DNA of 64,000 nt. Source: Bacteroidia bacterium. GTDB lineage: Bacteria > Bacteroidota > Bacteroidia > DATLTG01. Shown here piece by piece: positions 32,322 through 55,162 of this stretch; the first letter of the stretch is position 1; the number at the start of each line of letters is the position of its first letter. The position numbers and the translations under genes are program-made. The notes below the pieces were generated by a model. The model was not told the origin of the DNA. It saw nothing but the letters and a program-made list of their open reading frames with translations, and did no database searches. The stretch is from assembly GCA_039924845.1 (NCBI GenBank), contig JBDTAC010000054.1, positions 41,308 through 105,307 of the forward strand, read 5' to 3'.

Positions 32322-33680
32322 ATGAATGAGATAAAAAATACGGCATACATCGAGAATCTTGAATTCACGCAGTATCTACTATTTGCGATATCTGTATTTT
32401 TTATTTTTCTGATTTCATGGTTGATACAAAAACGGAAAATAAAAACCAACCCTCTTTACAAATATTATACAAGAGGGGTGATGACAAAAATTTTTGGAGC
32501 TTTCGTTTTTTGCATGGTGTACATTTTTTATTACCACGGTGGAGATACGATTTCTTATTTTGAAACATCCCGAGCTTTAACAAATTTGATGGTGCAAAAT
32601 CCGAATGATTTTTTAACTGTAATTAGCCAAAAAGCAAGTATTGAAAATTATTATTTATTTGATGGTCATACAACTGGATATCCTTGGCCTTATATGTATT
32701 ACGACTCGAAAACCTTTTTTGTAGCTAAATTATTGGTTCCGTTTCTATTTATATCTTTTAAAAGCTATTTGCTTGCCAGCGTCCTATTAGCTTGGGCTTC
32801 CTTTGTAGGTATTTGGAAAATGTTTTTAATGTTCGGGAAATTATATCAAGAAATATCTGTTCAATTAGCCATTGCAGTTTTATTTATTCCTTCCGTTGTT
32901 TTTTGGGGATCAGGGATTTTAAAAGATACGATAACGCTATCTGCTTCCTGTTGGTTTATTTATGCTTTATACAATTCTCTCATCATAAAAAATAAACGAG
33001 CTAAAAATTTTTTCATATTATTTTTAAGTGGCTATGTGATTTTTGCCATCAAGCCATATATTTTATTTGCCTTGCTTCCAGGTGGTTTAGTATGGATTAT
33101 CTACGCACGTATTTTAAAAATTAAAAATAAATTTTTCAGATACTCTGTTATTCCCTTGATATATTTGATAAGTTTTGGAGGCGGATACGCCCTTTTAAAT
33201 TCAATGAAAAACTCTATGAGCATTTCCGGCTTATTGGAAGAAGCATCTGTGAAACAAAACGATTTAAAAAGCACTGATTACGAAGGACATTCATTTGATA
33301 TTGGAAGTTATGATCCCTCAATAGCAGGAGCTTTGAAAGCTTCTCCGGCTGCAATTGTTGCAGGATTGTACCGACCATTTATTTGGGAATCAAGAACTGT
33401 AATGATGTTATTATCTGCACTGGAAAACACGGTTTATCTCGGATTAACCTTGTGGATATTACTACGTATCAATGTGTTTCGCTTGTTACGTATTATTCTC
33501 GATAATCCTTTGATACTTTTTTGTTTATCTTATGTTTTATTTTTCGCACTAATAGTGGGTTTGTCCACTTCTAATTTTGGCTCCTTGGTGCGATTTAAAA
33601 TTGCCTACGCTCCCGAATTTTTAAGCGCATTATTCATCATAAATTATTTTAGAAAAGAGAAACGGAAGCTAAAAAACTAA
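32322..33680 (+). CDS. Hypothetical polytopic membrane protein (>=10 predicted TM helices)
   Basis: 452 aa, highly hydrophobic, with no recognisable catalytic motif. It borders the polysaccharide locus. Confidence 0.45.
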   Translation: MNEIKNTAYIENLEFTQYLLFAISVFFIFLISWLIQKRKIKTNPLYKYYTRGVMTKIFGAFVFCMVYIFYYHGGDTISYFETSRALTNLMVQNPNDFLTVISQKASIENYYLFDGHTTGYPWPYMYYDSKTFFVAKLLVPFLFISFKSYLLASVLLAWASFVGIWKMFLMFGKLYQEISVQLAIAVLFIPSVVFWGSGILKDTITLSASCWFIYALYNSLIIKNKRAKNFFILFLSGYVIFAIKPYILFALLPGGLVWIIYARILKIKNKFFRYSVIPLIYLISFGGGYALLNSMKNSMSISGLLEEASVKQNDLKSTDYEGHSFDIGSYDPSIAGALKASPAAIVAGLYRPFIWESRTVMMLLSALENTVYLGLTLWILLRINVFRLLRIILDNPLILFCLSYVLFFALIVGLSTSNFGSLVRFKIAYAPEFLSALFIINYFRKEKRKLKN

Positions 33681-34549
33681 ATCTTTTTTTCGTAAAATCC
33701 TTTGATGCTGTCACCCATTTTAAAAAGAGACAACAATGTGTTGATCGAATTTTTTATCACTTTCAAAAGTATATTCTGTTCTATTTTACCTCGTAATTCC
33801 TGATCTTCATCAACTTGGGCATTCGAAAAATTATTTTTTTGAATGCTTTTTTTAAAGCGTTTTATACTGATTCCAGTTGTGTCTAATTTTATTTTCCGAA
33901 AATTATTTTTTTGAAAAAATACATTAATCGTTTTGGGTGTGTAATACGAAAGATGTTCGGGATACTCTATCACATTCCAATTCTGTTTTAAAACCAATCG
34001 ACTTATCGAATTAAAATTAGGCGTTGTAAAATAAAAAAGTCCGCCAAGCCTCAGAATTTCACGAATATTTTCCAGTTCACTTTGCGGATTATTGATATGC
34101 TCAATCACTTCAAAAGAAGTAATCACATCAAAATTATCTTTGGAATAATTGGCAGAATTTAAAATTCCTTGATGGATTGTAATTCCTTTTTTTACACAAG
34201 TTTCCATCGCTTCATCCGTAAATTCAGTACCGAAAGTTTGCCAACCTCTTTTTTTAGCGACTTCCAAAAAATAACCATCTCCGCAACCGATGTCTAATAT
34301 TTTATTTGTTTTTCGATATTTTTCAAACGCGTCAAGTAATTCTTCGTAACGCTTTATCGTAATGGCAGAAATCTCTCCACCACGTTTATATTTTTGATAA
34401 TGTGCAATAAGTTCAGTTGTTTCAGGAATACGTTTTCCGAAAACAAAATTACATTTTTGGCATTGCACCAAATACGCATGTTGGTAATTTTCCAATTCTA
34501 CCAAACAATCGGAATTGCATAACAAACAAGCAGAATGAGTTGCGTACAT
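33677..34549 (-). CDS. Class I SAM-dependent methyltransferase with an N-terminal Cys4 zinc-ribbon
   Basis: CLLCNSDC...CQKCNF ribbon and motif I ILDIGCGDGYF. Confidence 0.75.
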   Translation of the reverse strand: MYATHSACLLCNSDCLVELENYQHAYLVQCQKCNFVFGKRIPETTELIAHYQKYKRGGEISAITIKRYEELLDAFEKYRKTNKILDIGCGDGYFLEVAKKRGWQTFGTEFTDEAMETCVKKGITIHQGILNSANYSKDNFDVITSFEVIEHINNPQSELENIREILRLGGLFYFTTPNFNSISRLVLKQNWNVIEYPEHLSYYTPKTINVFFQKNNFRKIKLDTTGISIKRFKKSIQKNNFSNAQVDEDQELRGKIEQNILLKVIKNSINTLLSLFKMGDSIKGFYEKKI

Positions 34550-34553
34550 TTTA

Positions 34554-35579
34554 TTATTCAGCTAAATTTTGTTCCCATTTCCAAGCCGTTTCCATCATCG
34601 CATCCAAATCGAATTTCGGTTTCCAACCCAATTCTTTTTCTGATTTCGAAGTGTCGGAATAAATCGCTTCTACATCGCCATCACGCCTTTCGCCCATTTC
34701 AAAATTTAATTTTTTACCACTTATTTTTTCAAAAGAATGAATGGCTTCCAAAACACTTACGCCATTTCCTGTTCCTAAATTATAGGTGGAAAAATTTTCA
34801 GAAATGTCATCGGAAATTATTTTTTTCAACGCAATAACATGAGCCGAAGCAATATCGCAAACATGCACGTAATCACGAATACACGTTCCATCACGCGTTG
34901 GATAATCGTGTCCGAAAACAATCATTTTTTTTATCTTTCCGATAGCCGTTTGCGTAATTACAGGAACCAAATTATTGGGCTTGTTAATCGGAAATTCTCC
35001 AATTAAAGCGGATTTATGTGCGCCCACCGGATTAAAATAACGTAAAGCAATTACTTGAAGTCCTTTATTGGCAATAGTATAATCGCGTAAAATAGTTTCA
35101 CCAATTTGTTTCGTGTAAGCATAAGGAGATTCCGCTTTTCCGAGTAGTGTGGTTTCTTGAACAGGCAGTTTATCAATATTTCCATAAACAGAACAAGAAG
35201 AAGAAAAAATAATTTTTTCGATATTGAATTTGTTGGCAGCATTTAAAATACTGAGTAAGGAATTAATATTATTGTGATAATATTTTGCCGGATTTTCAAC
35301 CGATTCAGGAACCGATTTAAAAGCGGCAAAATGAATGATACCAATAATATTTTTTTCAGTTTCAAAAACTTTTTCTACTTCCGATTGATTGCATAAATCA
35401 ATGTTGTAATTTTTTACTTTTTTGCCCGTAATTTTCTCAATTCGATCAAAAGTTATTGCGGATGAATTGGAAAAATTATCTATTGAAATCACTTCAAAAT
35501 TAGTATTTTCGAGTAACTCAATAATCGTGTGCGAACCAATATAACCCGCACCTCCCGTAACAATTATTTTAGATTCCAT
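34554..35579 (-). CDS. galE: UDP-glucose 4-epimerase (SDR family)
   Basis: VTGGAGYIGSH Rossmann motif and the catalytic YAYTK (YxxxK). Confidence 0.85.
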   Translation of the reverse strand: MESKIIVTGGAGYIGSHTIIELLENTNFEVISIDNFSNSSAITFDRIEKITGKKVKNYNIDLCNQSEVEKVFETEKNIIGIIHFAAFKSVPESVENPAKYYHNNINSLLSILNAANKFNIEKIIFSSSCSVYGNIDKLPVQETTLLGKAESPYAYTKQIGETILRDYTIANKGLQVIALRYFNPVGAHKSALIGEFPINKPNNLVPVITQTAIGKIKKMIVFGHDYPTRDGTCIRDYVHVCDIASAHVIALKKIISDDISENFSTYNLGTGNGVSVLEAIHSFEKISGKKLNFEMGERRDGDVEAIYSDTSKSEKELGWKPKFDLDAMMETAWKWEQNLAE

Positions 35580-36771
35580 AAATTTGTTTATACACTTTTT
35601 CAGCGATTTCAAAATTACGATACTTTTCGGCAATCGGTCTAATTTTATTATACAACTCGTTTCGCGAATTATTTTTCAATAAAGCATCTATTTCTTTAAT
35701 TGATTTTAGATACGCTTCTGGATTTAGTTCTTCCAACACACTCCCAATTTTATTTTCACGAATAATATCTGAATCTTCCGAAATATTTTTTGTAATGACA
35801 ATCGGCAAACCTAAAGCCCAATATTCACCATCTTTTATAGGAGTGCAATATTTTTTTGTCGACACTGATTTTACAGGAGTGATAGCGAAATCAGCCAATC
35901 CAATATAATTAGGAATTTGTTTATGTGGAACAAATTGGTGTACAATTGTTTCCTTTTGTAATCCTGATTTTTCAATCATGGTATTAATTTCATCTTTACT
36001 TTGCGATGAAAGCAATAGCACTCGAAAATTATTTTTCCAGTAATTTTCTGCCACTTTAAAAAAATCAAACACTTCATTTTCTAAATAAATTCCACCAAAT
36101 TTCCCAGCATAAACACATACTATTTTATTTTTAAAATTTAAATCATTTAGTAATTTTTCATTTTTGATATTTTTGTCGGAAAACATATATAAATCAACAC
36201 AAGCAGGCTTCACGAAAAAATTATCTTTTTGATAATTGTATTTTTCTTTCGCATATTTTTTCATCTCTTCTGTAGCTGAAATTAAATACAATGCACGATT
36301 TGCTTGTAACTTCTCGAGTTTAAAAAGTAACTTAAAGGCAATACTACTTTTTTTCCAAGAGCCATTTTCGACCATCGCTTCCGCATGTGGTTCAAAACTA
36401 TCAATAATTAATTTTGTTCCTGTCAAAACAGATAATATATATCCCATTCCTCCAGCGGGAGTGCACCAAGCATGGATAATAGAAATTTTTTGTTCGCGAA
36501 TTAATAGAATTAATTGGAATACTGTTCTTATCCACATAATTAATCCTCGCCAGCCTAAAGGCTGGTATAAAATACTGATATTTTCAATATTATTTTCTGT
36601 CCGAGTTGTTTCTTTTTGAGATTTTTTTTTATCAAGTGTAACTAAAAATAATTTGTTTTCGGAGGAAATTTGTTCAGCAATTATTCTCACATAAGGAAGC
36701 GTATAAGTTTGTATCAAAGCATCTTGATAATCCCAATAAGTTAGAATTAAAATATTTTTTTTCGGAATCAA
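35569..36771 (-). CDS. Glycosyltransferase, GT4/GT1-like (GT-B fold)
   Basis: 400 aa with two Rossmann-like halves and a C-terminal nucleotide-sugar-binding region typical of GT4. Confidence 0.75.
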   Translation of the reverse strand: MIPKKNILILTYWDYQDALIQTYTLPYVRIIAEQISSENKLFLVTLDKKKSQKETTRTENNIENISILYQPLGWRGLIMWIRTVFQLILLIREQKISIIHAWCTPAGGMGYILSVLTGTKLIIDSFEPHAEAMVENGSWKKSSIAFKLLFKLEKLQANRALYLISATEEMKKYAKEKYNYQKDNFFVKPACVDLYMFSDKNIKNEKLLNDLNFKNKIVCVYAGKFGGIYLENEVFDFFKVAENYWKNNFRVLLLSSQSKDEINTMIEKSGLQKETIVHQFVPHKQIPNYIGLADFAITPVKSVSTKKYCTPIKDGEYWALGLPIVITKNISEDSDIIRENKIGSVLEELNPEAYLKSIKEIDALLKNNSRNELYNKIRPIAEKYRNFEIAEKVYKQIYGI

Positions 36772-37658
36772 AATACCAAATGTTTTAGTATTGCAAAAAA
36801 ACGTCTCGAAAAAATAATTTTCTGATTAACTTTTATTCCTTTTAATAAATAATAGATAGCAGTTATTTTATTTTTTTTCACAAGTGCTAAATGTAAGGCA
36901 ACATAGGTATAACAGCTCGATTTGAATTTATGCAAATCATTTTTATAATACGAAACGATTTCTGAATTCTGTAAAACCATTTTCATAAATAAGTCTATTC
37001 TTTCTATTAATTTATTTTTATCGGTTTGTAAAACGCTGCGCTCATCGTGATTAATAATAGCAGAAGTAATAACATTGTTGCAATGTATTTTGTATTTACA
37101 AGCTAAACGCAGCCATAATTCCCAATCTTCCATGACAGCTAATTCTCTATCTTCACTAAATAAATTTTGTTGTGCAATTCCTTTTCGCAAAAAAACGCCT
37201 TGACAACTCATTAAATTACCTTCAATTAATTTTGTGTTGATATTACCCTCACACACAGGCATTTTTCGAATAACATCTCCATTTGTTTTTTTTATTTCGT
37301 AACGAAGATGAATAATTTCAGGAAAATTATTTTTTCTAATGATTTCGTTCGCAACCTCTAAATGGTTGGGATAAAAAACATCGTCTGAATCTAGAAAAGT
37401 GATATAATTTCCTTTTGCCAATTTTGTTCCAAAATTTCTTGCTGCGCCGCGCTCTGCGTTTGATTTTTTATAATATACAATTCTTTTGCTGTTGATCGAT
37501 TTTATAATTTCTTCGGTATTGTCGGTACTGCCATCATCAACAACAATAATTTCATAATAAGCATAAGTTTGTTCAAGTGTACTTTTTAAAGTGTTTTCAA
37601 TTAAATGCGCTCGATTATAAGTAGGGATAATTACTGTAAAAAAAATATTATTCTCCAT
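36768..37658 (-). CDS. Glycosyltransferase family 2
   Basis: N-terminal TVIIPTYNRAHLIENTLKS...VVDDGSTDNT; DxD present (DSDD). Confidence 0.85.
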   Translation of the reverse strand: MENNIFFTVIIPTYNRAHLIENTLKSTLEQTYAYYEIIVVDDGSTDNTEEIIKSINSKRIVYYKKSNAERGAARNFGTKLAKGNYITFLDSDDVFYPNHLEVANEIIRKNNFPEIIHLRYEIKKTNGDVIRKMPVCEGNINTKLIEGNLMSCQGVFLRKGIAQQNLFSEDRELAVMEDWELWLRLACKYKIHCNNVITSAIINHDERSVLQTDKNKLIERIDLFMKMVLQNSEIVSYYKNDLHKFKSSCYTYVALHLALVKKNKITAIYYLLKGIKVNQKIIFSRRFFAILKHLVF

Positions 37659-38763
37659 AAAGCTTTTCTAATTTAGTAATCATTACATCCATCGAAAATA
37701 TTTTTTTTATACTTTTTTTTCCTTCTTCAATTATTTTTTCTTTTAAGGGTAAATTTTCTATCAGTTGTATTATATTCGTTGCAATTTGTTCTGAATTTTT
37801 AAATGGAACAACAAGTGCGTTTTCATTGTGTTTTATATAATCAGCTGCAATGCCTGACAATGACACAACCGATGGAACTCCTGCCGCCATTGTTTCAATA
37901 TATACTTGTCCGAAGGCTTCACTTTTTTCATCGATCGGAGCATGAACAAAAATATCAAAGAGTTGGTAGAGCGCGAATATATCTTCTTCAAAATTTATTT
38001 CTGTGTAATTATTTTTTGGTAGCTCGCTTAATAATGTTTCAATTTCATTTTTATACGGACCGCCTGCATTTGCCAATACCAAATGTGCATTGGGATATAT
38101 TTCAATTATTTTTTTAAATGCGGGAATAATATATTGGATTCCTTTCCAATGAATGTACCTTGAAATTACTCCAATTACGGGAGATTTCGGTTTCAAACTA
38201 AAATTTCGCGCAATTACATTTTCAATTCTCTCTTGCGAAATATTTTCAAATTCTTCTAATTGGAATCCGTGATGTATCAATATTATTTTACTTGGATTCA
38301 CATGTTCCATTTCTACCAAAATGTTTTTTACATTTTCGCTAATGGCGATAATATCAGTAGAAATTGAATTGATGTATTTATCGTATTTAACTGCTTGTGG
38401 ATGATATTGATGATGAATGGTTGCGTTGTGCCGCGTGTGAATTCTTTTTTTTATGCCCAATATTTTTGCCGCAGTAAGGCCAACAATGCACGCATCAAAT
38501 AAATGACAATGAACAATATCTATTTTTTTCTGCTTTAATATTCTCATTATTTTAAAAATAGCAAGCGGAATATCATTTTTGTTTTTATAATTTACACGAA
38601 ACGTAGGAATATCTTTTTTGATTAAAAAATTTTCTAAAGGCGAATTTTGATTATTTAAAAGTATAAAAAAAAGTTCAAACTTAGATGAATCAATATCCTC
38701 AGCAATCCATTCAAAAGCAACGGATTTATTGACAGAGGAAATTATGTAAGCTATTTTTTTCAA
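37648..38763 (-). CDS. Glycosyltransferase, GT4-like
   Basis: 371 aa GT-B architecture with the C-terminal EX7E-like region (AFGQVYIETMAAGVP). Confidence 0.75.
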   Translation of the reverse strand: MKKIAYIISSVNKSVAFEWIAEDIDSSKFELFFILLNNQNSPLENFLIKKDIPTFRVNYKNKNDIPLAIFKIMRILKQKKIDIVHCHLFDACIVGLTAAKILGIKKRIHTRHNATIHHQYHPQAVKYDKYINSISTDIIAISENVKNILVEMEHVNPSKIILIHHGFQLEEFENISQERIENVIARNFSLKPKSPVIGVISRYIHWKGIQYIIPAFKKIIEIYPNAHLVLANAGGPYKNEIETLLSELPKNNYTEINFEEDIFALYQLFDIFVHAPIDEKSEAFGQVYIETMAAGVPSVVSLSGIAADYIKHNENALVVPFKNSEQIATNIIQLIENLPLKEKIIEEGKKSIKKIFSMDVMITKLEKLYGE

Positions 38764-38862
38764 ACTTAGTTTGGTGTCAAAATTCTATATGATAATTAAA
38801 AAAGTTGATGTAATTTATTTTTCGTTTCAGAATTATAAATGGTTAATTTAAGAGTTCCTATT

Positions 38863-39771
38863 TTACAATTCCAAGCTCAATGCCGCAATCGTGCTTCCGT
38901 AAAATTTGTATCTTATTTGTTGAGGCAGAATCTTAAACAAACTGGAATTTTCAATAAAATTAACAGAAAAATTTGACTTCAATATTTGATAAATTAGTTT
39001 ACGTAAAAAATTAATTTTATAATCCGTTTCTTTTTTGAAAAAGCTTTTATAATCTGGATTGTCTGCAAAAATTTTTTTTTTCGATTCGATATAACATCTT
39101 TGCCGTTTCGCATAATACCTTAACGTAATCTTATCATTATGAATAGATGTTATATTTAAATCAAAATACGATGGAATGTTTTTACACAAAGCGCGCAATC
39201 CAAATTCAAAATCATAACCATCTCTAAGTGTTTCATCAAAATTACCTATTGCTTCAAAAACTTCTTTTGTAAAAGACATATTAGCGGTAGTAATAACAAA
39301 ATTTTCAAAATTCACTTTTAAAGGCTCTGTTCCATTATTGGTAATTTTTTTCCACTCATTTTCCATGTGTATTTTATATTTCTCTATATCTGTTGAAATG
39401 GAATCTTGAACTGTATTTGCCGCACCAGATAATAAACATTGCGGATATTTTTCGTGATGTTCAATGTGTTTTTGAATCAAATTATCTGAAGCAATAATGT
39501 CGTCATCCAATAAAATTATCAAGCCTTCCTTTATTCTTGATAGCGCATTATTATTTGCTTTTGATGCTCCCGAATTTACTTGTGTATAAATATCTATCTT
39601 GTATGGATAAGTGTTTTTAATATGCTGGATTTTTTGAAAAGTATCATCCAGAGATCCGTCATCCATTACCAAAACATTAAAATTCGAACAAGTTTGATTT
39701 TTGAGCGAATCAAGTGTTTGGATTAATTTTCCAACGCGATTGTAAGTAGGAATTACAACAGTAATACTCAT
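38863..39771 (-). CDS. Glycosyltransferase family 2
   Basis: ITVVIPTYNRVGKL...VLVMDDGSLDDT; DDD motif. Confidence 0.85.
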   Translation of the reverse strand: MSITVVIPTYNRVGKLIQTLDSLKNQTCSNFNVLVMDDGSLDDTFQKIQHIKNTYPYKIDIYTQVNSGASKANNNALSRIKEGLIILLDDDIIASDNLIQKHIEHHEKYPQCLLSGAANTVQDSISTDIEKYKIHMENEWKKITNNGTEPLKVNFENFVITTANMSFTKEVFEAIGNFDETLRDGYDFEFGLRALCKNIPSYFDLNITSIHNDKITLRYYAKRQRCYIESKKKIFADNPDYKSFFKKETDYKINFLRKLIYQILKSNFSVNFIENSSLFKILPQQIRYKFYGSTIAALSLEL

Positions 39772-40781
39772 ATTTTTTTTCGTGAAAATTTATTTTTTAG
39801 TCTAAATTTATTAAAATAATATTTGGAACAAGCCTCTGAAATATAGAGGTTTGATTGTCTATATTTTTGCAAAGTTTTGAATCCTTTTGATGCAAAATCG
39901 GTACAAATTTCGAACCAGACCCAAGCTAATACATTGTTAAAATCACTTATCGGAAACAAAGTTATTTTATTATTTGCATTCTTTAATTTCAACAACCAAT
40001 TCTCAACACTTGTTAAAAATTCAGGCTCATAGCTGTAATCAATAAAAAATATTTTTTGATGAATGTACGATTCTTTTTTATTAGGATTAATTCCCATCTT
40101 TGAAAATAAATTGGAATGAACATCAAATACCGATGCTAATTGAGTTTCCCTTTTTACTACCGAAATTTGCTCAGCATGTTGTCTATAACGCAACATCATT
40201 TCGGGAATTAACGCGTAATCCGTGCTATCAAAAGCGTTTATCCAAAAAGCATAATCTTCTGCATGAGGATAATTTTTATCGTAATTCAGATTTGATTTTT
40301 TTAGAATATCCGAACGAAACATAATGGTTGGATGCGATAAAATATTATCAAAAAATAATCTTGCTTTAATTTCATTTGAATTTAAAATACGCTTACGATA
40401 CACTTGTTTTTTATTTTTCTGAATATAAGTACCTACAATTCCAACTCGAGGATTATTCTCAAGCAGTTGTACTTGCTTGAGAATTCGCTGAGGCATACTG
40501 TAATCATCTGCATCCATCCTTGCAATGTATTTACCTTTTGCCTTTGTTAATCCATCATTCAATGTTTCAATAATTCCACGATTCTCTTTATAGCTAATAA
40601 CCCGAATTCTCGAATCTTTATAGTTGTTTATAATTGTTAACGAATTGTCTGTAGAACCATCATTTATAATCAAAAAATCAATGTTTTTATATGTTTGATT
40701 CAATATACTTTCAATCGCTTCTTCTAAAAATGAAGATGCGTTGTAAGCGGGCATTAAAACAGTTACTAAAGGCTGATCCAT
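39768..40781 (-). CDS. Glycosyltransferase family 2
   Basis: VTVLMPAYNASSFLEEAIESILNQTY...LIINDGSTDNS; DADD motif. Confidence 0.85.
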   Translation of the reverse strand: MDQPLVTVLMPAYNASSFLEEAIESILNQTYKNIDFLIINDGSTDNSLTIINNYKDSRIRVISYKENRGIIETLNDGLTKAKGKYIARMDADDYSMPQRILKQVQLLENNPRVGIVGTYIQKNKKQVYRKRILNSNEIKARLFFDNILSHPTIMFRSDILKKSNLNYDKNYPHAEDYAFWINAFDSTDYALIPEMMLRYRQHAEQISVVKRETQLASVFDVHSNLFSKMGINPNKKESYIHQKIFFIDYSYEPEFLTSVENWLLKLKNANNKITLFPISDFNNVLAWVWFEICTDFASKGFKTLQKYRQSNLYISEACSKYYFNKFRLKNKFSRKKI

Positions 40782-41656
40782 GATGCTGGGTATATAGTCG
40801 AATCAAAATTATTATCCGGTTTTTTAAACCACTTTTTAGGTGCTACAACAATTTTATTCGGATTTGTATTGAGCCATGCACCCCACCAAGAAAATGTGCT
40901 GTTGGCAATTATATTGTGCGAACAATTTTGCATTAAAAATAATTCTTCCACTTCCCCTAAATTTTCATGGCTGACAAAAATTGATTCGGTTTCAAATTTC
41001 AAATTTTCACGACACCACGCTATGTCGTCCGAAAAAATAAATATTCCAAAAGCATTTTCTTTGCTGTAATTTATTATATATTCTAATGCTTTATCGTAAT
41101 AATCGGAAGAAAGAATTGTGTAAAAGTGATTATATTTATTAATATAATCACCCCTTCTAACATGTACAGCAATTGAATTTTTATATTTTTTAATTTTACT
41201 TAACAGATCTTGTGCAAAAGGTGTTATTGTTTTTTTTAAATGCAAGTCTTGCCTTAACTGTATTTCAATTTCTTTAAAATACAAATATGATTGCCAAAAG
41301 CCTTCTAAATAAGAATTTACTGGAATTTTAACCATATTTGAATCAAAACCTTTTTTAGATTCGATAACGTAACTGTTTTTGTAATAGGGTAATAAATTCC
41401 TTTCCAGAAATCGTTTCAATTTGGAAACGATTTGCGGGTTTAAAATTTCTTCTGAAGATTGTATTCTTGGAATTTGCTGTATTGTAAACTCATCTAAATA
41501 TAAAACACGTTTTGTTGCTCCGGCACTTGTAAATTCAGAATCATAAAAAGATACATCAATAGCAATTTGTGCGTTTAATTTTTTCTTTATGCTTAACGCC
41601 AATGCGTACTGAAAAAGCTGATTTCCTAAGCCTCCTTGAAAACGAACTACAATCAT
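40766..41656 (-). CDS. Alpha-1,2-fucosyltransferase (GT11 family)
   Basis: N-terminal RFQGGLGNQLFQYA, the GT11 motif I hallmark; ~296 aa. Confidence 0.85.
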   Translation of the reverse strand: MIVVRFQGGLGNQLFQYALALSIKKKLNAQIAIDVSFYDSEFTSAGATKRVLYLDEFTIQQIPRIQSSEEILNPQIVSKLKRFLERNLLPYYKNSYVIESKKGFDSNMVKIPVNSYLEGFWQSYLYFKEIEIQLRQDLHLKKTITPFAQDLLSKIKKYKNSIAVHVRRGDYINKYNHFYTILSSDYYDKALEYIINYSKENAFGIFIFSDDIAWCRENLKFETESIFVSHENLGEVEELFLMQNCSHNIIANSTFSWWGAWLNTNPNKIVVAPKKWFKKPDNNFDSTIYPASWISL

Positions 41657-42408
41657 TTTTTACGAGCAAGTATGTGAAATCCGAAATTCAATAATTCTTC
41701 CGATCCTTTATTTTTTTTAGAAAATTTCACAAGCATTTTATACACAATTCCAATCGCTTTGCTTTCTATAAAAGATTTTTTTTGATTGGTATATTTTTCA
41801 GCTATCGAAGTCACCCTACTCATTTCCTGTTTTAAAAATTCGAAATAATTTCCATTGGCAGTAATTTCGAGAATTTCAAATTCATTTTCGATAAGGTGTT
41901 TTTCATAAAAATATTTATTAAACCCTGAATAATAATGGTAAGGTGCAAAATGAGTCATACTGCAAAAAGGCGCAGTAATAATTAAATAGCCTCCTTTTTT
42001 TAATAATCTGTCAAATTCTTTAATGGCAGCAATCGGATTCGGTATATGTTCAAAGACTTCTGTACACATAATAGCATCAAAACTTTTGTCTGGCTCAGGA
42101 ATATCAACAATATCCGAAACAATATCCAATTTCCCATAATCCCATTGATGCATTTGCAAGCCATTTTTGACTTCATCAGGTTTGTATTGGGCAAAATCTT
42201 GCGACATATAATTTAAATGTGCACAAAAATTTTTAAACTGCTGTTCTCCTGCACCTGCATCAAGAATACGCAAACCGGAAGGGATTTTTTCCAATGTTTT
42301 TTTTAACCAAACAACTCGATTAATCTCATTTATATTATTTTGTTGATCATCCATGATTTTCCCATTTATTCTTTTTAACAAAAATTGTGTTGATGTAAGT
42401 ATCAGCAT
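41653..42408 (-). CDS. Class I SAM-dependent methyltransferase
   Basis: Motif I LRILDAGAGEQQF and a downstream acidic motif (IVSDIVDIPEPD). The true start may be the internal MDDQQ. Confidence 0.7.
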   Translation of the reverse strand: MLILTSTQFLLKRINGKIMDDQQNNINEINRVVWLKKTLEKIPSGLRILDAGAGEQQFKNFCAHLNYMSQDFAQYKPDEVKNGLQMHQWDYGKLDIVSDIVDIPEPDKSFDAIMCTEVFEHIPNPIAAIKEFDRLLKKGGYLIITAPFCSMTHFAPYHYYSGFNKYFYEKHLIENEFEILEITANGNYFEFLKQEMSRVTSIAEKYTNQKKSFIESKAIGIVYKMLVKFSKKNKGSEELLNFGFHILARKK

Positions 42409-43078
42409 ATACTATGTATCCTTGCTGTTCCAAAAAGCTAATAATATTATCGTTTTTTATACCTTTTCCTTTTTCCGAAAATGAAATTGTTTCGACGCAA
42501 ATAACTATTGGATAATTACTTTTATAATTAATCGAGTGCAATATTTCATCATCCATCCCTTCAACATCTAATGATAAAAAATCCGGAAATATACCATTGT
42601 GATAAATTTCTATAATATTTTTTAAAGTACTTATTTTAATTTTTTCCTTTCCAATAATTTTATAGCCATTTTCCTTTTGATATTCCTCCGCAGCTTCTTT
42701 AGAAAAGGTGTTAAGGGAGGATGCGGACAATTTGTAATAATCTAAATTTCCTTCTTTCAAACCAATACCAATATTCAAATTAATATCTTTTTGTCGAGAT
42801 TTTTTAAACAATTTTATAGATTCAGGATTTGGTTCAATATTAATTCCTCGGCTTCCTAACTTATAAAAAATAGCTGTATTATTAATATGAAAAGGATGGT
42901 GTGCCCCTATATCAATATAAGAAGGTTTATTAATTCCAATGGTATCAAAAATAAATTTCATGATTAAATCCTCTCCAGACTGAGAATAGGATCTTTTCAC
43001 AAATAATTCTTTAACTGTTTTCTTAAATAATGACATTATTTTTAAAAATATTTTATTTTTCAACTTGATTGTAGTCAA
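42347..43078 (-). CDS. FkbM-family methyltransferase (probable)
   Basis: YIDIGAHHPFHINNTAIFYKLGSRGINIEPNP resembles the FkbM-domain N-terminus. It is a paralog of the adjacent gene. Confidence 0.6.
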   Translation of the reverse strand: MTTIKLKNKIFLKIMSLFKKTVKELFVKRSYSQSGEDLIMKFIFDTIGINKPSYIDIGAHHPFHINNTAIFYKLGSRGINIEPNPESIKLFKKSRQKDINLNIGIGLKEGNLDYYKLSASSLNTFSKEAAEEYQKENGYKIIGKEKIKISTLKNIIEIYHNGIFPDFLSLDVEGMDDEILHSINYKSNYPIVICVETISFSEKGKGIKNDNIISFLEQQGYIVYADTYINTIFVKKNKWENHG

Positions 43079-43775
43079 TTTTATTTACATATAACTGATC
43101 TCCAAAAGATTGAGAACATTCGTTTTTATAAAGAAAAAAATTATTCTGATGCATATATTTTTCGATATCCTTCTTTAAACCTTGTTTTTTATAAAGTTCT
43201 ATGGTAGAAACCTCTAACCAAATAACTTTAATTTTATTGATCATTTGAGAAGCACCTTCCAATACTTTTAATTCTGCCCCTTGCACATCCATGTGCACAA
43301 AATCAATTCTTTCGATATTATTTTTTTTACAAAAAGCATTTATCGTATTCGCGTTGACTTCTATCGTTTTATTGAATTTTAGCCAAGCATGCGTTTGATT
43401 AACCTTTTTCGGTGGGAGTATTGAACTAGATTTATTGCCATAATTCCAATCTTCTTCTTTTTCAATATTATCAGGTATTCCTGATGACACATAAAAATTT
43501 ATTTTTCCAATTGTATCTGATAATGCTTCTTCAATTATTTTTACATGAAGTTTATCATAAGTTTTAAAATTCTTTTTTATCAACTTGATATTTTCCGGAT
43601 TCGGTTCAAATGAATAAATGTCAGCTTTTGGAAAAAGATTGGCATATCTGATAGAATCTTCACCCTCACAAGCCCCAACATCAAAAACAATTAATTTGTC
43701 TTCCGAATTAAATAATCTGAGAAGCTCGCTTTTTATAGGAATATCCGAATTTATATATTCACTTCGATCGCTCAT
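43053..43775 (-). CDS. FkbM-family methyltransferase
   Basis: FDVGACEGEDSIRYANLFPKADIYSFEPNPEN, the characteristic FkbM pattern. Confidence 0.75.
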   Translation of the reverse strand: MSDRSEYINSDIPIKSELLRLFNSEDKLIVFDVGACEGEDSIRYANLFPKADIYSFEPNPENIKLIKKNFKTYDKLHVKIIEEALSDTIGKINFYVSSGIPDNIEKEEDWNYGNKSSSILPPKKVNQTHAWLKFNKTIEVNANTINAFCKKNNIERIDFVHMDVQGAELKVLEGASQMINKIKVIWLEVSTIELYKKQGLKKDIEKYMHQNNFFLYKNECSQSFGDQLYVNKIDYNQVEK

Positions 43776-44977: not shown

Positions 44978-44999
44978 AAAATAATTTTTTTTAATGTCA

Positions 45000-46190
45000 T
45001 TACAAAGACCAATTTAATAGTGGAAGGTTTTCTTTTTTTAGGTCATTCAAACTGCCAAAGTCAATCTTATTCTCTTTGCAAAAAGATTCGATTATATATC
45101 TCACCTGAACATTATTTCCTTTGTTAATAATAAATTTGATATAAGATTTCAAAGAATGTTCTCCGTAAATTTTCAAAATATAATTCAAACTTTTATGAAG
45201 TGAATATAAATTATCTTGCGTTAAATTAATCGCGTATAAATAGAATAAGGTGATTTCCTTTTTTACTTCTAATCGCTGTGCCCACAAGGTCAGCATAAAT
45301 GACAATCTTTTTGATTCAAAGGATTTTAAATTCCACGCCACTATTTTTTCGTCTATTTTTTGCACCAAACTTTCAAAAGTTTCTTTTTCATAAGCTTGTT
45401 GTTTCGCATGATCGTCAATTTGCTTAAAAATTTGAATGCTTTTTTTTATCAATTTATCAGAATCAATGGCAGGGACATCAAGAAAATATTTTTCAAGTTC
45501 TTCAACACTAAGCGTACCTTCATACATAATTGGAGAACTTGTAAAGCGGAAGACCAATGCCATAGTAACATCATTCTTGATATTCTGTAATCCTTCGTGA
45601 TCTGTATTCCCCAGCCAAAGCAAAAACTCACCAAGTTTTAAATCAGGCTTAACAGTCTTTTTTAACGAATGTAAAAAAGTAGCTACAATCTTTATTTTTT
45701 TTATAATTTTTCTCATCAAAAAATTATCTTTCTTGTGTGTTTTTTCGATAATACTTATCGGTTGATAAGTGCATTCATTTAAGGGAGTCCAAGTGGTATA
45801 AAAATGCTTAATGTAATCATATCCGTCTTTATGTTCTGGACCAATTTCCGAAGTGTCAAAAGGAAAATGAATTATTGGGTAAGGAAGTGTACAAAAGTTT
45901 ATTTCAGAGGATAATTGGTATGTGCTTTTTAATTTTTGGCAAATAGATTTAGCAAGTTTTATGCTAGACGGATCGTATCTCAAGAAAGATCTTACAATTG
46001 CTTTTACAAGTTCTATATACTCTATTAAATTATCATCAAATGTCGAAATAGAAACATGAAACTCTTTTTGAACTTCTAACAACGTTGTTTGTAAAAAATA
46101 ATTTTTCCTCTCAAGTAATAAGCTAAATATTTCCTTCTGAAGTTCATGTTCAGCCGAAGACCAGCCATATTTTTTCAATCTCGTTTCCAT
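45000..46190 (-). CDS. Hypothetical protein (396 aa) inserted between wzt and wzm
   Basis: No recognisable motif and no TM segment. The ORF is continuous and co-oriented within the operon. Confidence 0.5.
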   Translation of the reverse strand: METRLKKYGWSSAEHELQKEIFSLLLERKNYFLQTTLLEVQKEFHVSISTFDDNLIEYIELVKAIVRSFLRYDPSSIKLAKSICQKLKSTYQLSSEINFCTLPYPIIHFPFDTSEIGPEHKDGYDYIKHFYTTWTPLNECTYQPISIIEKTHKKDNFLMRKIIKKIKIVATFLHSLKKTVKPDLKLGEFLLWLGNTDHEGLQNIKNDVTMALVFRFTSSPIMYEGTLSVEELEKYFLDVPAIDSDKLIKKSIQIFKQIDDHAKQQAYEKETFESLVQKIDEKIVAWNLKSFESKRLSFMLTLWAQRLEVKKEITLFYLYAINLTQDNLYSLHKSLNYILKIYGEHSLKSYIKFIINKGNNVQVRYIIESFCKENKIDFGSLNDLKKENLPLLNWSL

Positions 46191-46194
46191 CCTT

Positions 46195-47013
46195 TTATGC
46201 TAAATCGGCAAAATAACTTTCTGTTTTCCTGAAATAAAATAATCCAATTATAAATAAAATAAAAGATGAACAAATACTGATAAATATTAAATTCATGTTC
46301 AACGGTTGCGTTACAATTGCATTCCGAAACAATTCAATAGCGGCATACATCGGATTTAATGCCATTATATATTTCATCCATTGATGCGTTAGAATAGAAA
46401 CCGGATAAATGACGGGAGTTAAAAACAAAAGTGCTTGTACTAAAAACGGAATGATGTAACGAAAATCTCGGTATTTGATATTTAAAGCTGCCAAAAATGA
46501 ACCTAAACCAAAAGTGGAAATACTTGCAATAACTAATCCTGCCGGAATAAAAACGATAAATTTTAAAACAGCTACCTGCGTATGAAAATACAAGAGTATT
46601 CCGATAAAAATCAGGAAACTCATTAAAAAATCGAACAAAGCAACTAATACCGCAGAAACTGGGATAATTAATCTCGGAAAATAAATCTTTTTGATAATAT
46701 TCGCATTGTTTATCATACTATTTCCAGCAGCGGTCAAGCCGGATGCAAAAACATTCCACAGCAACAATCCGGAAAAAACAAAAACAGGATAAGGTAAATT
46801 TTCGGATGGTACTTTTAAAGCTCTTCCAAAAAAAACGGAAAAGATAATCATCATAAAAAAAGGTTGTAAAACTGCCCACAGAAAACCTAAAACAGTTTGT
46901 TTGTATTTTACTTTTATATCGCGCCAAGTAAAAAAATAAAACAACTCTCGATATTGCCAAAGTTCAGCAATACCAAGGCTTAATTTTTCTTTTGGTTTTA
47001 TTTCGTATTCCAT
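46195..47013 (-). CDS. wzm: Polysaccharide ABC exporter permease (ABC-2, Wzm/KpsM-like)
   Basis: WQYRELFYFFTWRDIKVKYKQTVLGFLWAVLQP N-terminal motif and 6 TM. Confidence 0.85.
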   Translation of the reverse strand: MEYEIKPKEKLSLGIAELWQYRELFYFFTWRDIKVKYKQTVLGFLWAVLQPFFMMIIFSVFFGRALKVPSENLPYPVFVFSGLLLWNVFASGLTAAGNSMINNANIIKKIYFPRLIIPVSAVLVALFDFLMSFLIFIGILLYFHTQVAVLKFIVFIPAGLVIASISTFGLGSFLAALNIKYRDFRYIIPFLVQALLFLTPVIYPVSILTHQWMKYIMALNPMYAAIELFRNAIVTQPLNMNLIFISICSSFILFIIGLFYFRKTESYFADLA

Positions 47014-47014
47014 T

Positions 47015-47902
47015 TTATTTATTCCAAAATGCTAAATCTTTACCTATCATTTTTGACAATTCTTCGTTATACGGCTTATAAAATTCGAGTAAAAAGGTGC
47101 GCACATCCTCATCCATTGAAAGATGCTTTTCATTTATCTTATTTATTTTTCGTAAAGCTTCTCCATAATGATAAGAAGCGTGTCCAGAAATTAATTTTTT
47201 CAATCCCTTTTTTAAAGGGTTTTCATTGTGCAATAATCGTCTTAAAACGCGCGCATACAAAAATGAGCGTGTTTTTTGTGTGGGATTATAAATCACAGTT
47301 ACATTCGGCACAAAATGATCATCCACATTTATTTTTTTGAATATTTTTTCACAAATGTTTTTCGCATCTTTTTTTAAATCTTCGTAGAAAAGTAAGGTAA
47401 CTTGTTCTTTCGAGAAATAGTGATAAATATTTTTCAAATGCTTCTCGTACAAACTGTAATCAATAAAATAATCGAAACCCCAATAGAGTTCTTCGTCTTT
47501 GTGTTTTGTATATAAATCGGGTAAATCAGAAAATTCAAATTTGGCAGAACCTGCATTTTTTTCCATCAAATAGGAGGAATACGTACGCTCTACCGGATTT
47601 CGCATGATAAAAACAATTTCGCATTTCGGATTGTGCTCTTTCAAACGAATCAAGGCTTCTTCATTCGCATATAGATTTGCATTCTTGCAAATTAATTTTG
47701 TTTCTTCGGTATATTCTTGATGCGAAAAAAAAGTTTTCAATGCCTTCTCAAAACCACGACTGTATTCTTTATCATCATAAAAATAACTAAATTCTTTTTG
47801 GGAATGGCACAAACACGCAGGATGCTCTCCAAGATAGCGCAACAAGGAAGAAGTACCTGACTTTTGAGCTCCCACTATCATCACATCAATTTTTCTCTCC
47901 AT
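47015..47902 (-). CDS. PAPS-dependent sulfotransferase
   Basis: 5-prime-PSB motif GAQKSGTSSL and 3-prime-PB-like motif FIMRNPVERTYSSY, the sulfotransferase fold signatures. Confidence 0.8.
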   Translation of the reverse strand: MERKIDVMIVGAQKSGTSSLLRYLGEHPACLCHSQKEFSYFYDDKEYSRGFEKALKTFFSHQEYTEETKLICKNANLYANEEALIRLKEHNPKCEIVFIMRNPVERTYSSYLMEKNAGSAKFEFSDLPDLYTKHKDEELYWGFDYFIDYSLYEKHLKNIYHYFSKEQVTLLFYEDLKKDAKNICEKIFKKINVDDHFVPNVTVIYNPTQKTRSFLYARVLRRLLHNENPLKKGLKKLISGHASYHYGEALRKINKINEKHLSMDEDVRTFLLEFYKPYNEELSKMIGKDLAFWNK

Positions 47903-55145: not shown

Positions 55146-55162
55146 AAATTGTGTCCGAAAAA

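What the first reader, a model, noticed from the sequence alone, without database searches (positions are those of the whole stretch)
33677..47902. ABC-transporter-dependent polysaccharide locus combining a sulfotransferase, four methyltransferases and a Wzt with a glycan-terminus-binding extension
- Seen: a ~14-kb co-oriented cluster of galE, three GT2, two GT4, a GT11 alpha-1,2-fucosyltransferase, four SAM methyltransferases (two tandem FkbM paralogs), wzt, wzm, a PAPS-type sulfotransferase, and an unassignable 396-aa protein wedged between wzt and wzm.
- Established: in Wzm/Wzt (ABC-dependent) O-polysaccharide pathways, chain length is set by a terminating cap (methyl or phosphate in the E. 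coli O8/O9a WbdD system) that is read by the C-terminal carbohydrate-binding domain of Wzt.
- Seen: this Wzt has a ~150-aa C-terminal beta-rich extension consistent with that mechanism.
- Inference: the product is a fucosylated glycan that is methyl- and/or sulfate-capped. Sulfate as a terminating or decorating group in a Bacteroidota ABC-dependent pathway would be unusual.
- Seen: no initiating polyprenyl-phosphate transferase (WbaP/WecA-like) and no GDP-fucose synthesis genes are in the locus, so they must be encoded elsewhere.
Basis: partly seen in the sequence, partly recalled or inferred. Interest (0 to 1): 0.6.

Follow-up and report, generated by a model that had tools for sequence, protein, structure and literature searches.

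The report
ABC-exported surface-glycan locus with hidden oxygenase
This is a real 15-gene surface-polysaccharide locus of an uncultured Bacteroidia bacterium that is largely ordinary, except that its 'unassignable' 396-aa gene encodes a divergent iron/2-oxoglutarate oxygenase and its sulfotransferase looks like a conserved decorating enzyme, not the export signal.

Summary
Bases 33677-47902 (minus strand) carry 15 tightly packed, co-oriented genes: sulfotransferase, Wzm, a 396-aa protein (X), Wzt, two FkbM methyltransferases, a class-I methyltransferase, GT11, three GT2, two GT4, GalE and another methyltransferase.

Wzt carries a C-terminal Pfam Wzt_C domain above threshold, so an ABC-dependent, cap-gated export pathway is supported at profile level.

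The sulfate-cap idea is not supported.
- The sulfotransferase heads this locus in seven of seven relatives, with or without wzm/wzt.
- The Wzt cap-binding domain (CBD) does not co-vary with it. The CBD is 61% identical in a locus that lacks the sulfotransferase, and 24.5% identical in the closest relative, which keeps it.
- The CBD type co-varies with X and the FkbM pair. That pair is fused into one protein elsewhere and follows wzt in four of four lineage loci. An O-methyl cap is therefore the likelier export signal.

Verdict: a new member of a known kind, of moderate interest.

The parts
47015..47902 (-). PAPS-type carbohydrate sulfotransferase (295 aa), the first gene of the locus, divergent from Ham1
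   Evidence: Pfam Sulfotransfer_1 E 1.2e-14 and Sulfotransfer_3 E 1.7e-12. Best PDB sequence matches are 3rnl, heparan-sulfate NST 1nst and 3-OSTs. G11 A12 Q13 K14 T17 S19 (5'-PSB motif), E37, and R101/S109 (3'-PB motif) are invariant in 34 homologs. It heads the locus in 7 of 7 relatives.
46195..47013 (-). Wzm, the ABC-2 permease (272 aa)
   Evidence: Pfam ABC2_membrane E 1.4e-18. NCBIfam galactan Wzm/RfbD and KpsM models hit below their cut-offs. It is 83% identical to the L034 Wzm and 72% to the L005 Wzm.
45000..46190 (-). X: a divergent PhyH-like Fe(II)/2-oxoglutarate dioxygenase (core about residues 95-230) with N-terminal helices and a C-terminal helical bundle (about residues 244-373); 396 aa
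43772..44977 (-). Wzt (401 aa): ABC nucleotide-binding domain (about residues 1-245) plus a C-terminal cap-binding domain (about residues 250-401, bases 43775-44230)
   Evidence: Pfam ABC_tran E 4.1e-23 and Wzt_C E 1.5e-10, 41.7 bits against a cut-off of 30.4. Aquifex Wzt 8dku matches at E 1.1e-66, aligned over residues 38-357. The CBD alone has no significant PDB sequence hit (best E 2.1). A single-sequence AF2 model is all-beta but poor, pLDDT 40.9. Its highest-probability Foldseek hits are Aquifex Wzt and its CBD (7k2t, 8dky, 6o14), with TM 0.41-0.46 and E about 1e-2.
43053..43775 (-). FkbM-family methyltransferase 1 (240 aa); candidate cap methyltransferase
   Evidence: Pfam Methyltransf_21 E 9.2e-23 and TIGR01444. 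It is 45% identical to the N-terminal half of the fused 488-aa protein in L005. An FkbM gene follows wzt in 4 of 4 lineage loci.
42347..43078 (-). FkbM-family methyltransferase 2 (243 aa; the start codon is uncertain, either TTG at 43078 or an ATG downstream)
   Evidence: Pfam Methyltransf_21 E 9.4e-16. It is 57% identical to the C-terminal half of the L005 fusion and only 27% identical to FkbM1.
41653..42408 (-). Class-I SAM methyltransferase 'MT11' (251 aa), part of the conserved backbone set
   Evidence: Pfam Methyltransf_23 and Methyltransf_11, E about 1e-14. Orthologs at 55-60% identity lie next to or near X or the sulfotransferase in L005, L011, L017, L018 and L024.
40766..41656 (-). GT11 glycosyltransferase (296 aa), the alpha-1,2-fucosyltransferase family
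   Evidence: Pfam Glyco_transf_11 E 5.7e-35, covering 1-296 of 298 profile positions. It is absent from the collinear locus L024.
39768..40781 (-). GT2 glycosyltransferase 'GT2a' (337 aa)
   Evidence: Pfam Glycos_transf_2 E 9.7e-36. Orthologs are in L011, L017 and L024.
38863..39771 (-). GT2 glycosyltransferase 'GT2b' (302 aa)
   Evidence: Pfam Glycos_transf_2 E 7.5e-24. Orthologs at 44-46% identity are in L011, L017 and L024.
37648..38763 (-). GT4 glycosyltransferase 'GT4a' (371 aa)
   Evidence: Pfam Glycos_transf_1 E 1.1e-27 and Glyco_transf_4. Orthologs at 52-55% identity are in L005, L011 and L024.
36768..37658 (-). GT2 glycosyltransferase 'GT2c' (296 aa)
   Evidence: Pfam Glycos_transf_2 E 5.3e-34. 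Orthologs are in L005, L009, L011 and L024.
35569..36771 (-). GT4 glycosyltransferase 'GT4b' (400 aa)
   Evidence: Pfam Glycos_transf_1 E 1.9e-10. Orthologs at 45-66% identity are in L009, L011 and L024.
34554..35633 (-). UDP-glucose 4-epimerase GalE (ORF of 359 aa; the true start is probably about 20 codons downstream)
   Evidence: NCBIfam TIGR01179: 389.3 bits against a cut-off of 262.3, aligned from residue 22. Pfam Epimerase and GDP_Man_Dehyd.
33677..34549 (-). Class-I SAM methyltransferase 'MT23' (290 aa), the last gene of the locus
   Evidence: Pfam Methyltransf_23 E 1.3e-27. Orthologs at 50-54% identity are in L005 and L024.
32322..33680 (+). Conserved polytopic membrane protein (452 aa), convergent with the locus end. 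Whether it belongs to the pathway is unknown.
   Evidence: No Pfam, NCBIfam or PDB hit. About 9 hydrophobic segments. A homolog at 61% identity sits in the same position in L009.

Best explanation
The region is one operon-like, low-GC surface-glycan locus (LPS O-antigen-like) of an uncultured Bacteroidia bacterium. It sits at a conserved chromosomal site between Ham1/tandem-Ddl and a conserved membrane protein.

It is made of two parts.
1. A ten-gene backbone found collinear in relatives: sulfotransferase, oxygenase X, MT11, GT2a, GT2b, GT4a, GT2c, GT4b, GalE and MT23.
2. An export-and-cap add-on: Wzm, Wzt with a cap-binding domain (CBD), the FkbM1/FkbM2 pair and GT11.

Proposed mechanism (the gene content and homologies are shown; the steps below are inferred):
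- An initiating transferase encoded elsewhere primes undecaprenyl phosphate.
- The five backbone glycosyltransferases, plus the GT11 fucosyltransferase, build the glycan on the cytoplasmic face.
- The glycan is decorated there by PAPS-dependent sulfation, SAM-dependent methylation (MT11, MT23) and an Fe(II)/2-oxoglutarate-dependent oxidation, probably a hydroxylation, by X.
- The FkbM1/FkbM2 pair O-methylates the non-reducing terminus. This stops elongation and creates the epitope bound by the Wzt CBD.
- Wzm/Wzt then exports the capped, lipid-linked glycan for ligation to its final acceptor.

On this reading sulfate is a lineage-conserved decoration, not the export signal.
For: Gene identities.

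Wzt CBD:
- Pfam Wzt_C is above threshold.
- The closest solved homolog is Aquifex Wzt. Its CBD was crystallised bound to 3-O-methyl-mannose (8dky, listed).

Backbone and add-on:
- L024 is collinear with the window minus wzm, wzt, FkbM1, FkbM2 and GT11.

Sulfotransferase is independent of the transporter and of the CBD:
- It heads the locus in L009, L010, L011, L017, L024 and L034, as well as in the window.
- L005 has a 61%-identical CBD but no sulfotransferase homolog in the contig stretch examined.
- L034 has a 77%-identical sulfotransferase but a CBD only 24.5% identical.

FkbM pair:
- An FkbM gene follows wzt directly in the window, L005, L010 and L034.
- The pair is fused into one protein in L005.
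- The second FkbM gene of L034 also hits Pfam V_cholerae_RfbT.
- Small stand-alone methyltransferases without coiled coils act in the ABC-dependent P. aeruginosa CPA pathway (PMC3560663).
- CBDs gate export of only terminated chains (PMC11231755).

X as an oxygenase.

X in glycan loci: 8 of 11 informative contexts.
Against: - No chemistry is available. Cap identity, acceptor, sulfate and fucose are all inferred.
- The co-variation of CBD type with gene content rests on only four or five loci.
- The L005 contig may not include the whole locus, so a sulfotransferase further upstream cannot be excluded.
- No protein with a coiled-coil ruler is present, so chain-length control, if any, is unexplained.
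- The CBD fold could not be confirmed with a confident model (pLDDT 40.9).
- Six distinct glycosyltransferases fit a complex repeat unit or a defined oligosaccharide as well as they fit a classical ABC-type homopolymer.
- Relatives with the same backbone but no wzm/wzt in the locus (L024, L011) show that export can be supplied differently.
- PAPS synthesis genes were not found in the window.
- X also occurs in three non-glycan contexts.
Confidence: 0.55

Rival explanations
1. One reading: sulfate, alone or together with methyl, is the chain-terminating cap recognised by the Wzt CBD.
For: The sulfotransferase gene is 1 nt upstream of wzm, and in L034 and L035 it also abuts wzm. Its catalytic motifs are intact.
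Against: The same sulfotransferase family heads loci that have no wzm/wzt (L009, L011, L024). The CBD diverges to 22-25% identity in L010 and L034 while the sulfotransferase stays at 53-77%. L005, the locus with the most similar CBD (61%), has no sulfotransferase homolog in the stretch examined. In Aeromonas salmonicida, a sulfotransferase-domain ORF next to wzt has no sulfate counterpart in the O-antigen (PMC4483657).
Confidence: 0.1
2. Oxygenase X helps make the terminal epitope that the Wzt CBD reads, for example by hydroxylating the terminal sugar that FkbM1/FkbM2 or MT11 then methylate. This would be an oxidative step in capping.
For: X lies between wzm and wzt in the window and in L005, with gaps of 4 to 22 nt or overlaps, and between them at a greater distance in L003. 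X is present in both loci that share this CBD type (window and L005, 61%) and absent from L034 and L010, which have other CBD types. The top structural neighbours include oxygenases that act on sugar moieties: AviO1, EvdO1/O2, EvdMO1, HygX, KanJ and SnoK/SnoN.
Confidence: 0.2
3. X is not part of the glycan pathway. It is a small-molecule oxygenase, acting for example on a nucleotide sugar or an unrelated metabolite, that happens to lie in variable islands.
For: Homologs sit next to ArsR-type regulators, DinB, VIT1 and chromate or arsenic genes (L001, L006) or next to housekeeping genes (L032). In L003 X lies beside HAD hydrolase and nucleotidyltransferase genes.
Against: Eight of 11 informative contexts are glycan loci from at least four lineages. 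X is repeatedly adjacent to MT11, the sulfotransferase or wzm. In the window it is packed 4 nt after wzm and 22 nt before wzt.
Confidence: 0.15
4. The product is not an LPS O-antigen but another glycoconjugate, such as a protein O-glycan, a capsule or a glycolipid.
For: Five conserved single-domain glycosyltransferases plus decorating enzymes suit a defined oligosaccharide. Relatives lack a transporter in the locus. No ligase, polymerase or initiating gene was identified. A Wzc-like protein and a second ABC-2 permease lie 6 kb away.
Against: A Wzm/Wzt transporter with a Wzt_C domain is typical of O-polysaccharide-type export (PMC11231755). Nothing in the window points to a specific alternative acceptor.
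Confidence: 0.25

Closest known systems
Capped-glycan Wzm/Wzt systems with a Wzt carbohydrate-binding domain: E. coli O8/O9a = Klebsiella O5/O3, Klebsiella O12/O4/O7, Aquifex aeolicus
   Same: An ABC-2 permease plus an NBD with a C-terminal Wzt_C domain, cytoplasmic assembly by several glycosyltransferases, and methyltransferases in the locus. The nearest solved homolog is Aquifex Wzt, whose CBD binds a 3-O-methyl sugar (PMC11231755).
   Different: There is no large terminator protein with a coiled-coil ruler. All methyltransferases are 240-290 aa and are filled by their catalytic domains. The candidate cappers are FkbM-type enzymes, not WbdD-type. A sulfotransferase and a 2OG oxygenase are integrated. 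The host is Bacteroidia.
Pseudomonas aeruginosa common polysaccharide antigen locus (PA5447-PA5459)
   Same: ABC-dependent export with small stand-alone methyltransferases that lack membrane-binding or coiled-coil domains, and export that seems to need a modification (PMC3560663).
   Different: CPA is a D-rhamnan made by a few multi-specific glycosyltransferases. It has no sulfotransferase, oxygenase or GT11.
PhyH-family Fe(II)/2OG oxygenases acting on glycosides: AviO1, EvdO1/O2, EvdMO1, HygX (orthosomycin and hygromycin pathways), KanJ, SnoK/SnoN
   Different: Sequence identity is only 9-14%. X has an additional, conserved helical C-terminal domain of about 150 aa, has no Pfam match of its own, and sits in surface-glycan loci rather than antibiotic clusters. 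Its substrate is unknown.
Uncharacterised PhyH-family genes in Xanthomonas wzm/wzt LPS cassettes, and KdoO (a Kdo 3-hydroxylase of the LPS core)
   Same: 2OG oxygenases are encoded in or act on LPS pathways. PhyH-family genes are annotated inside ABC-type LPS cassettes (bioRxiv 10.1101/2022.03.02.482478; XAC3597 in PMC3130047). KdoO's reaction is recalled from my own knowledge of the literature; no retrieved text was read for it.
   Different: No homology to X was tested or shown. The Xanthomonas genes have no known function, and KdoO belongs to another 2OG subfamily and acts on the core Kdo.
Sulfated capsular polysaccharide loci of marine Gammaproteobacteria, e.g. Vibrio sp. KMM 8419
   Same: Sulfotransferase genes lie within a polysaccharide locus that has ABC-type export (PMC11641403).
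   Different: Those loci use a Kps-type transporter without a CBD and carry cysDNC (PAPS) genes in the cluster. Here the transporter is Wzm/Wzt with a CBD and no PAPS genes were found nearby.

Membership tests
ABC-transporter-dependent capped-glycan export (Wzm/Wzt with CBD) | ABC-2 permease Wzm | tested here: met
   PF01061 E 1.4e-18. NCBIfam Wzm/RfbD and KpsM models hit below their equivalog cut-offs.
ABC-transporter-dependent capped-glycan export (Wzm/Wzt with CBD) | Wzt nucleotide-binding domain | tested here: met
   PF00005 E 4.1e-23. Aquifex Wzt 8dku/7k2t matches at E 1e-66.
ABC-transporter-dependent capped-glycan export (Wzm/Wzt with CBD) | C-terminal carbohydrate-binding domain on Wzt (sequence profile) | tested here: met
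   PF14524 Wzt_C: 41.7 bits against a cut-off of 30.4, residues 264-372.
ABC-transporter-dependent capped-glycan export (Wzm/Wzt with CBD) | CBD adopts the Wzt beta-sandwich fold | tested here: inconclusive
   The single-sequence AF2 model is all-beta but has pLDDT 40.9. Its highest-probability Foldseek hits are Wzt CBDs (6o14, 8dky, 7k2t; also 2r5o and 5hno), but TM is 0.26-0.46 and E about 1e-2. An alignment could not be supplied.
ABC-transporter-dependent capped-glycan export (Wzm/Wzt with CBD) | Terminator enzyme with a coiled-coil molecular ruler | tested here: not met
   No locus protein exceeds 401 aa. The methyltransferases are 240-290 aa and almost filled by their catalytic domains. 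The longest helix in X is 26 residues. No dedicated coiled-coil predictor was run.
ABC-transporter-dependent capped-glycan export (Wzm/Wzt with CBD) | Non-reducing-end cap that is required for export | not testable with these tools
   This needs glycan chemistry and genetics.
PAPS-dependent carbohydrate sulfotransferase (Sulfotransfer_1, heparan-sulfate NST/3-OST-like) | 5'-PSB and 3'-PB PAPS-binding motifs and a catalytic base | tested here: met
   GAQKSGTSS (K14), RNPVERTYS (R101, S109) and E37 are invariant in 34 homologs. Assigning these residues to the named motifs rests on my own knowledge of the family.
PAPS-dependent carbohydrate sulfotransferase (Sulfotransfer_1, heparan-sulfate NST/3-OST-like) | Family profile match above threshold | tested here: met
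   PF00685: 54.8 bits against a cut-off of 22. PF13469: 48.5 bits against 27. PDB matches 3rnl, 1nst and 3bd9.
PAPS-dependent carbohydrate sulfotransferase (Sulfotransfer_1, heparan-sulfate NST/3-OST-like) | The acceptor is the glycan made by this locus | not testable with these tools
   Only genomic context supports this: it is the first gene of the glycan locus in 7 of 7 relatives.
PhyH-like Fe(II)/2-oxoglutarate dioxygenase (PF05721) | Double-stranded beta-helix fold | tested here: met
PhyH-like Fe(II)/2-oxoglutarate dioxygenase (PF05721) | HxD/E...H iron-binding triad and a basic 2OG-binding residue | tested here: met
   H120, D122 and H198 are invariant in 22 close and 41 distant sequences. 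Position 215 is R or K in 39 of 41. Their placement in the active site is inferred from motif order, not from a superposition.
PhyH-like Fe(II)/2-oxoglutarate dioxygenase (PF05721) | Match to the Pfam PhyH profile | tested here: not met
   Neither X nor its 21 close homologs hit PF05721, even at E <= 10. Eight of 41 distant relatives do, best E 3.1e-8, so the sequence link is only transitive.
GT11 alpha-1,2-fucosyltransferase | Family profile match | tested here: met
   PF01531 E 5.7e-35 over the full length. Donor and acceptor specificity were not testable.
WbdD-type terminator (kinase/methyltransferase plus coiled coil) | Kinase domain and a long coiled coil fused to a methyltransferase | tested here: not met
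   No kinase domain and no long protein is present in the locus.

The most novel reading that the evidence does not exclude
The rare X family is a glycan-modifying Fe(II)/2-oxoglutarate oxygenase. Its oxidation of the chain terminus, followed by FkbM or MT11 methylation, forms part of the cap that the Wzt carbohydrate-binding domain reads. [quoted passage not shown]
Probability: 0.2. Interest if true: 0.65.

Novelty: new member of a known kind. Interest (0 to 1): 0.38.

Why it matters
The general logic of ABC-dependent glycan export gated by a Wzt cap-binding domain is established, and this locus fits it, so the locus as a whole is not surprising. Three points are still useful.

1. A protein family with no Pfam, NCBIfam or PDB sequence match is placed here among the PhyH-like 2OG oxygenases.
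   - Only 22 close homologs turned up in a 5.8-billion-protein collection, and 130 representatives among 1.84 billion.
   - The family sits repeatedly in surface-glycan loci.
   - This gives a concrete, testable candidate for oxidative tailoring of bacterial polysaccharides.

2. The comparison of natural variants separates candidate caps without any chemistry. The same transporter core carries different CBDs alongside different downstream genes. That points away from sulfate and towards the FkbM pair, possibly together with X.

3. The locus is a compact Bacteroidia example of a CBD-gated system that lacks the coiled-coil terminator of the enterobacterial prototypes.

Tried and rejected
- **Direct sequence annotation of X.** Pfam, NCBIfam, PDB phmmer and a PDB profile search all gave nothing, or one chance hit. 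Only the fold, plus distant relatives, gave the assignment.
- **Homolog search with the Wzt CBD alone.** It returned nothing and used the last search of that kind. The CBD alone also gave no meaningful PDB hit.
- **Structure prediction of Wzt with an alignment of locus homologs.** The single-sequence model is poor (pLDDT 40.9), so the Foldseek hits to Wzt CBDs are only weak support.
- **AlphaFold-database fold search for X.** The library was unavailable.
- **Scanning metagenomes with the distant alignment A2.** This failed because no block was conserved enough to search with.
- **Mann, Kimber & Whitfield 2019 census of terminators.** The paper could not be read. I therefore cannot say whether sulfotransferase or oxygenase terminators were already proposed there.
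- **Rejected: the FkbM genes are a recent tandem duplication.** They share only 27% identity.
- **Rejected: X is a transporter subunit needed by Wzm/Wzt.** The closest relative, L034, has wzm and wzt adjacent to each other with no X.
- **Rejected: the 274-aa gene upstream of wzm in L005 is a cryptic sulfotransferase.** It has no Pfam hit, and by eye I saw no PAPS-binding motif in its sequence.
- **Promoter analysis was not attempted,** because the available scan models sigma-70 promoters, not Bacteroidota-type promoters.

Full report
**1.

ORF listing shows 15 co-oriented minus-strand genes from 47902 down to 33677. Pfam and NCBIfam identify them, in transcription order:
- a Sulfotransfer_1/3 protein
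- an ABC-2 permease (Wzm)
- a 396-aa protein with no match in any sequence library (X)
- Wzt (ABC_tran plus Wzt_C)
- two FkbM methyltransferases
- a class-I methyltransferase (MT11)
- a GT11 glycosyltransferase
- GT2a, GT2b, GT4a, GT2c and GT4b
- GalE (TIGR01179, 389 bits against a cut-off of 262)
- a second class-I methyltransferase (MT23)

Gaps between genes run from -65 to +22 nt, with one 99-nt gap. GC is 0.301 in the locus against 0.354 in the rest of the window. No initiating transferase, GDP-fucose gene or PAPS-synthesis gene was found in the locus or among the other window ORFs scanned. The X protein is 100% identical to a hypothetical protein of a public 'Bacteroidia bacterium' MAG.

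**2. The Wzt extension**

- Residues 264-372 match Pfam Wzt_C at 41.7 bits, above the 30.4-bit cut-off.
- The best solved homolog is full-length Aquifex aeolicus Wzt (8dku/7k2t, E 1e-66). The alignment runs through residue 357. The cap-binding domain (CBD) part adds about 14 bits over the NBD-only chains.
- On its own the CBD finds no solved structure by sequence.
- I could not get an alignment for it, so the AF2 model is poor: pLDDT 40.9, all-beta.
- Its highest-probability Foldseek hits are nonetheless Wzt CBDs (6o14, 8dky bound to 3-O-methyl-mannose, 7k2t; also 2r5o and 5hno), with TM 0.26-0.46.
- I count the CBD as established at profile level and not confirmed structurally.

**3. The sulfotransferase**

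- It resembles 3rnl and the heparan-sulfate N- and 3-O-sulfotransferases.
- The PAPS-binding residues (K14, R101, S109) and a candidate catalytic Glu (E37) are invariant in 34 homologs.
- It is therefore most likely an active carbohydrate sulfotransferase.

**4. The 'unassignable' protein X**

Rarity:
- Only 22 proteins in a 5.8-billion-sequence collection match it.
- A profile search finds 130 representatives among 1.84 billion.
- None of the close homologs has a Pfam hit.

Fold:
- An AF2 model built on the 22-sequence alignment is confident: pLDDT 86.2, pTM 0.89.
- Foldseek agrees, with probability 1.00 for 49 hits.

Conserved residues:
- H120-x-D122, H198 and H108 are invariant down to about 20% identity.
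- Position 215 is Arg or Lys in 39 of 41 sequences.
- This is the canonical iron triad plus a 2OG-binding base, judged by motif order.

Sequence link and domains:
- Eight of 41 distant relatives hit Pfam PhyH, best E 3.1e-8.
- A helical C-terminal domain of about 150 aa is conserved across the family.

**5. Comparative genomics**

The site is conserved: tandem-Ddl and Ham1 on one side, the sulfotransferase as first gene, then a variable middle. Where the far end is captured it runs GT4a-GT2c-GT4b-GalE (L009 retains only GT2c-GT4b-GalE, and L010's end lies beyond the fetched stretch), followed in the window and L009 by a conserved 452-aa membrane protein.

| Locus | Arrangement and similarity to the window |
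|---|---|
| L024 | Collinear with the window minus wzm, wzt, FkbM1, FkbM2 and GT11 |
| L011, L009 | Also lack wzm/wzt |
| L034 (closest relative) | SulfoT-wzm-wzt-FkbM-FkbM/RfbT, no X. SulfoT 77%, Wzm 83%, Wzt NBD 80%, CBD 24.5% identical |
| L005 | wzm-X-wzt-(FkbM1+FkbM2 fused)-MT11. CBD 61% identical; no sulfotransferase homolog in the stretch examined |
| L010 | SulfoT and wzm-wzt-FkbM, no X. CBD 22% identical |

So the CBD type follows X and the FkbM pair, not the sulfotransferase. The sample is small.

X family members lie in glycan loci in 8 of 11 informative contexts. Three of these have X between wzm and wzt. Three contexts are non-glycan.

**6. Mechanism**

Shown: the gene content, the homologies and the synteny.

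Inferred:
- The glycan is assembled in the cytoplasm on a lipid carrier by six glycosyltransferases.
- It is decorated by sulfation, methylation and an X-catalysed oxidation.
- The FkbM pair caps it by O-methylation.
- The Wzt CBD recognises the cap, and Wzm/Wzt exports the glycan.

The CBD checkpoint model comes from the enterobacterial prototypes (PMC11231755). Small methyltransferases without coiled coils have a precedent in the P. aeruginosa CPA pathway (PMC3560663).

**7. Comparison with known systems**

- The locus meets the transporter and CBD criteria of capped-glycan ABC systems but lacks the coiled-coil terminator.
- Sulfotransferases in ABC-exported polysaccharide loci have been reported, for example in Vibrio KMM 8419 (PMC11641403). 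In Aeromonas salmonicida a sulfotransferase-domain ORF next to wzt has no sulfate counterpart in the O-antigen (PMC4483657).
- PhyH-family genes are annotated, but uncharacterised, in Xanthomonas wzm/wzt LPS cassettes (bioRxiv 10.1101/2022.03.02.482478; PMC3130047).
- So neither accessory enzyme class is unprecedented in such loci. The specific X family and its placement between wzm and wzt have not, to my knowledge, been described.

**8. Verdict**

This is a genuine locus of a known kind. The added value is the assignment of X and the pointer from natural variation towards a methyl cap, possibly dependent on X. Interest is moderate.

**9. Limits**

- There is no chemistry.
- Only a few loci were compared.
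- No confident CBD model was obtained.
- A key census paper could not be read.
- The rest of the genome was not available to check for PAPS, wecA, GDP-fucose or ligase genes.

Noticed in passing
window 48604-51315 (+), with 51324-52130 (+): A 903-aa protein made of two complete D-Ala-D-Ala ligase modules in tandem, followed by a PASTA-domain protein. The fusion is conserved next to Ham1 in relatives: L010 (897 aa), L011 (921 aa) and L024 (910 aa).
   Followed up: partly
window 32322-33680 (+): A 452-aa polytopic membrane protein (about 9 hydrophobic segments) with no Pfam, NCBIfam or PDB match. It is convergent with the end of the glycan locus and sits in the same position in L009 at 61% identity. 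It could be a ligase or a GT-C-type enzyme, but this was not tested.
   Followed up: partly
window 54276-57535 (-): A second ABC-2 permease (289 aa) lies directly downstream of a 790-aa Wzc-like co-polymerase/tyrosine kinase (Wzz + GNVR + AAA_31). No ATPase gene lies beside it, which hints at a second polysaccharide export system nearby.
   Followed up: no
L005 9239-10705 (+), compared with window 42347-43775 (-): The two separate FkbM genes of the window are fused into one 488-aa two-domain protein in a related Bacteroidota MAG. In the window the two reading frames overlap by 26 nt.
   Followed up: yes
L003, L015, L028, L030 (contigs binned as Parcubacteria/Zambryskibacteria): An X homolog at 46% identity, together with Bacteroidia-like wzm and wzt, lies on contigs assigned to candidate-phyla-radiation bacteria. 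This points to horizontal transfer or mis-binning.
   Followed up: no
window 57729-60188 (+) and 2864-4321 (-): Two large ORFs (819 aa and 485 aa) without any Pfam match.
   Followed up: no
window 4850-7255 (-), 24576-25484 (-), 52133-54106 (+): Three proteins carry type-IX-secretion C-terminal sorting domains, one of them with SprB repeats. This fits a Bacteroidota host with a T9SS.
   Followed up: no
L007, L008, L014, L019 (Saprospiraceae), about 3456-9803 in L007: Here X lies next to an LPG_synthase_TM protein, in a cluster with DUF7657/DUF7654, a small GT2, DUF2304, DUF268, FkbM and GT11. This looks like a system that modifies the glycan outside the cytoplasm.
   Followed up: no
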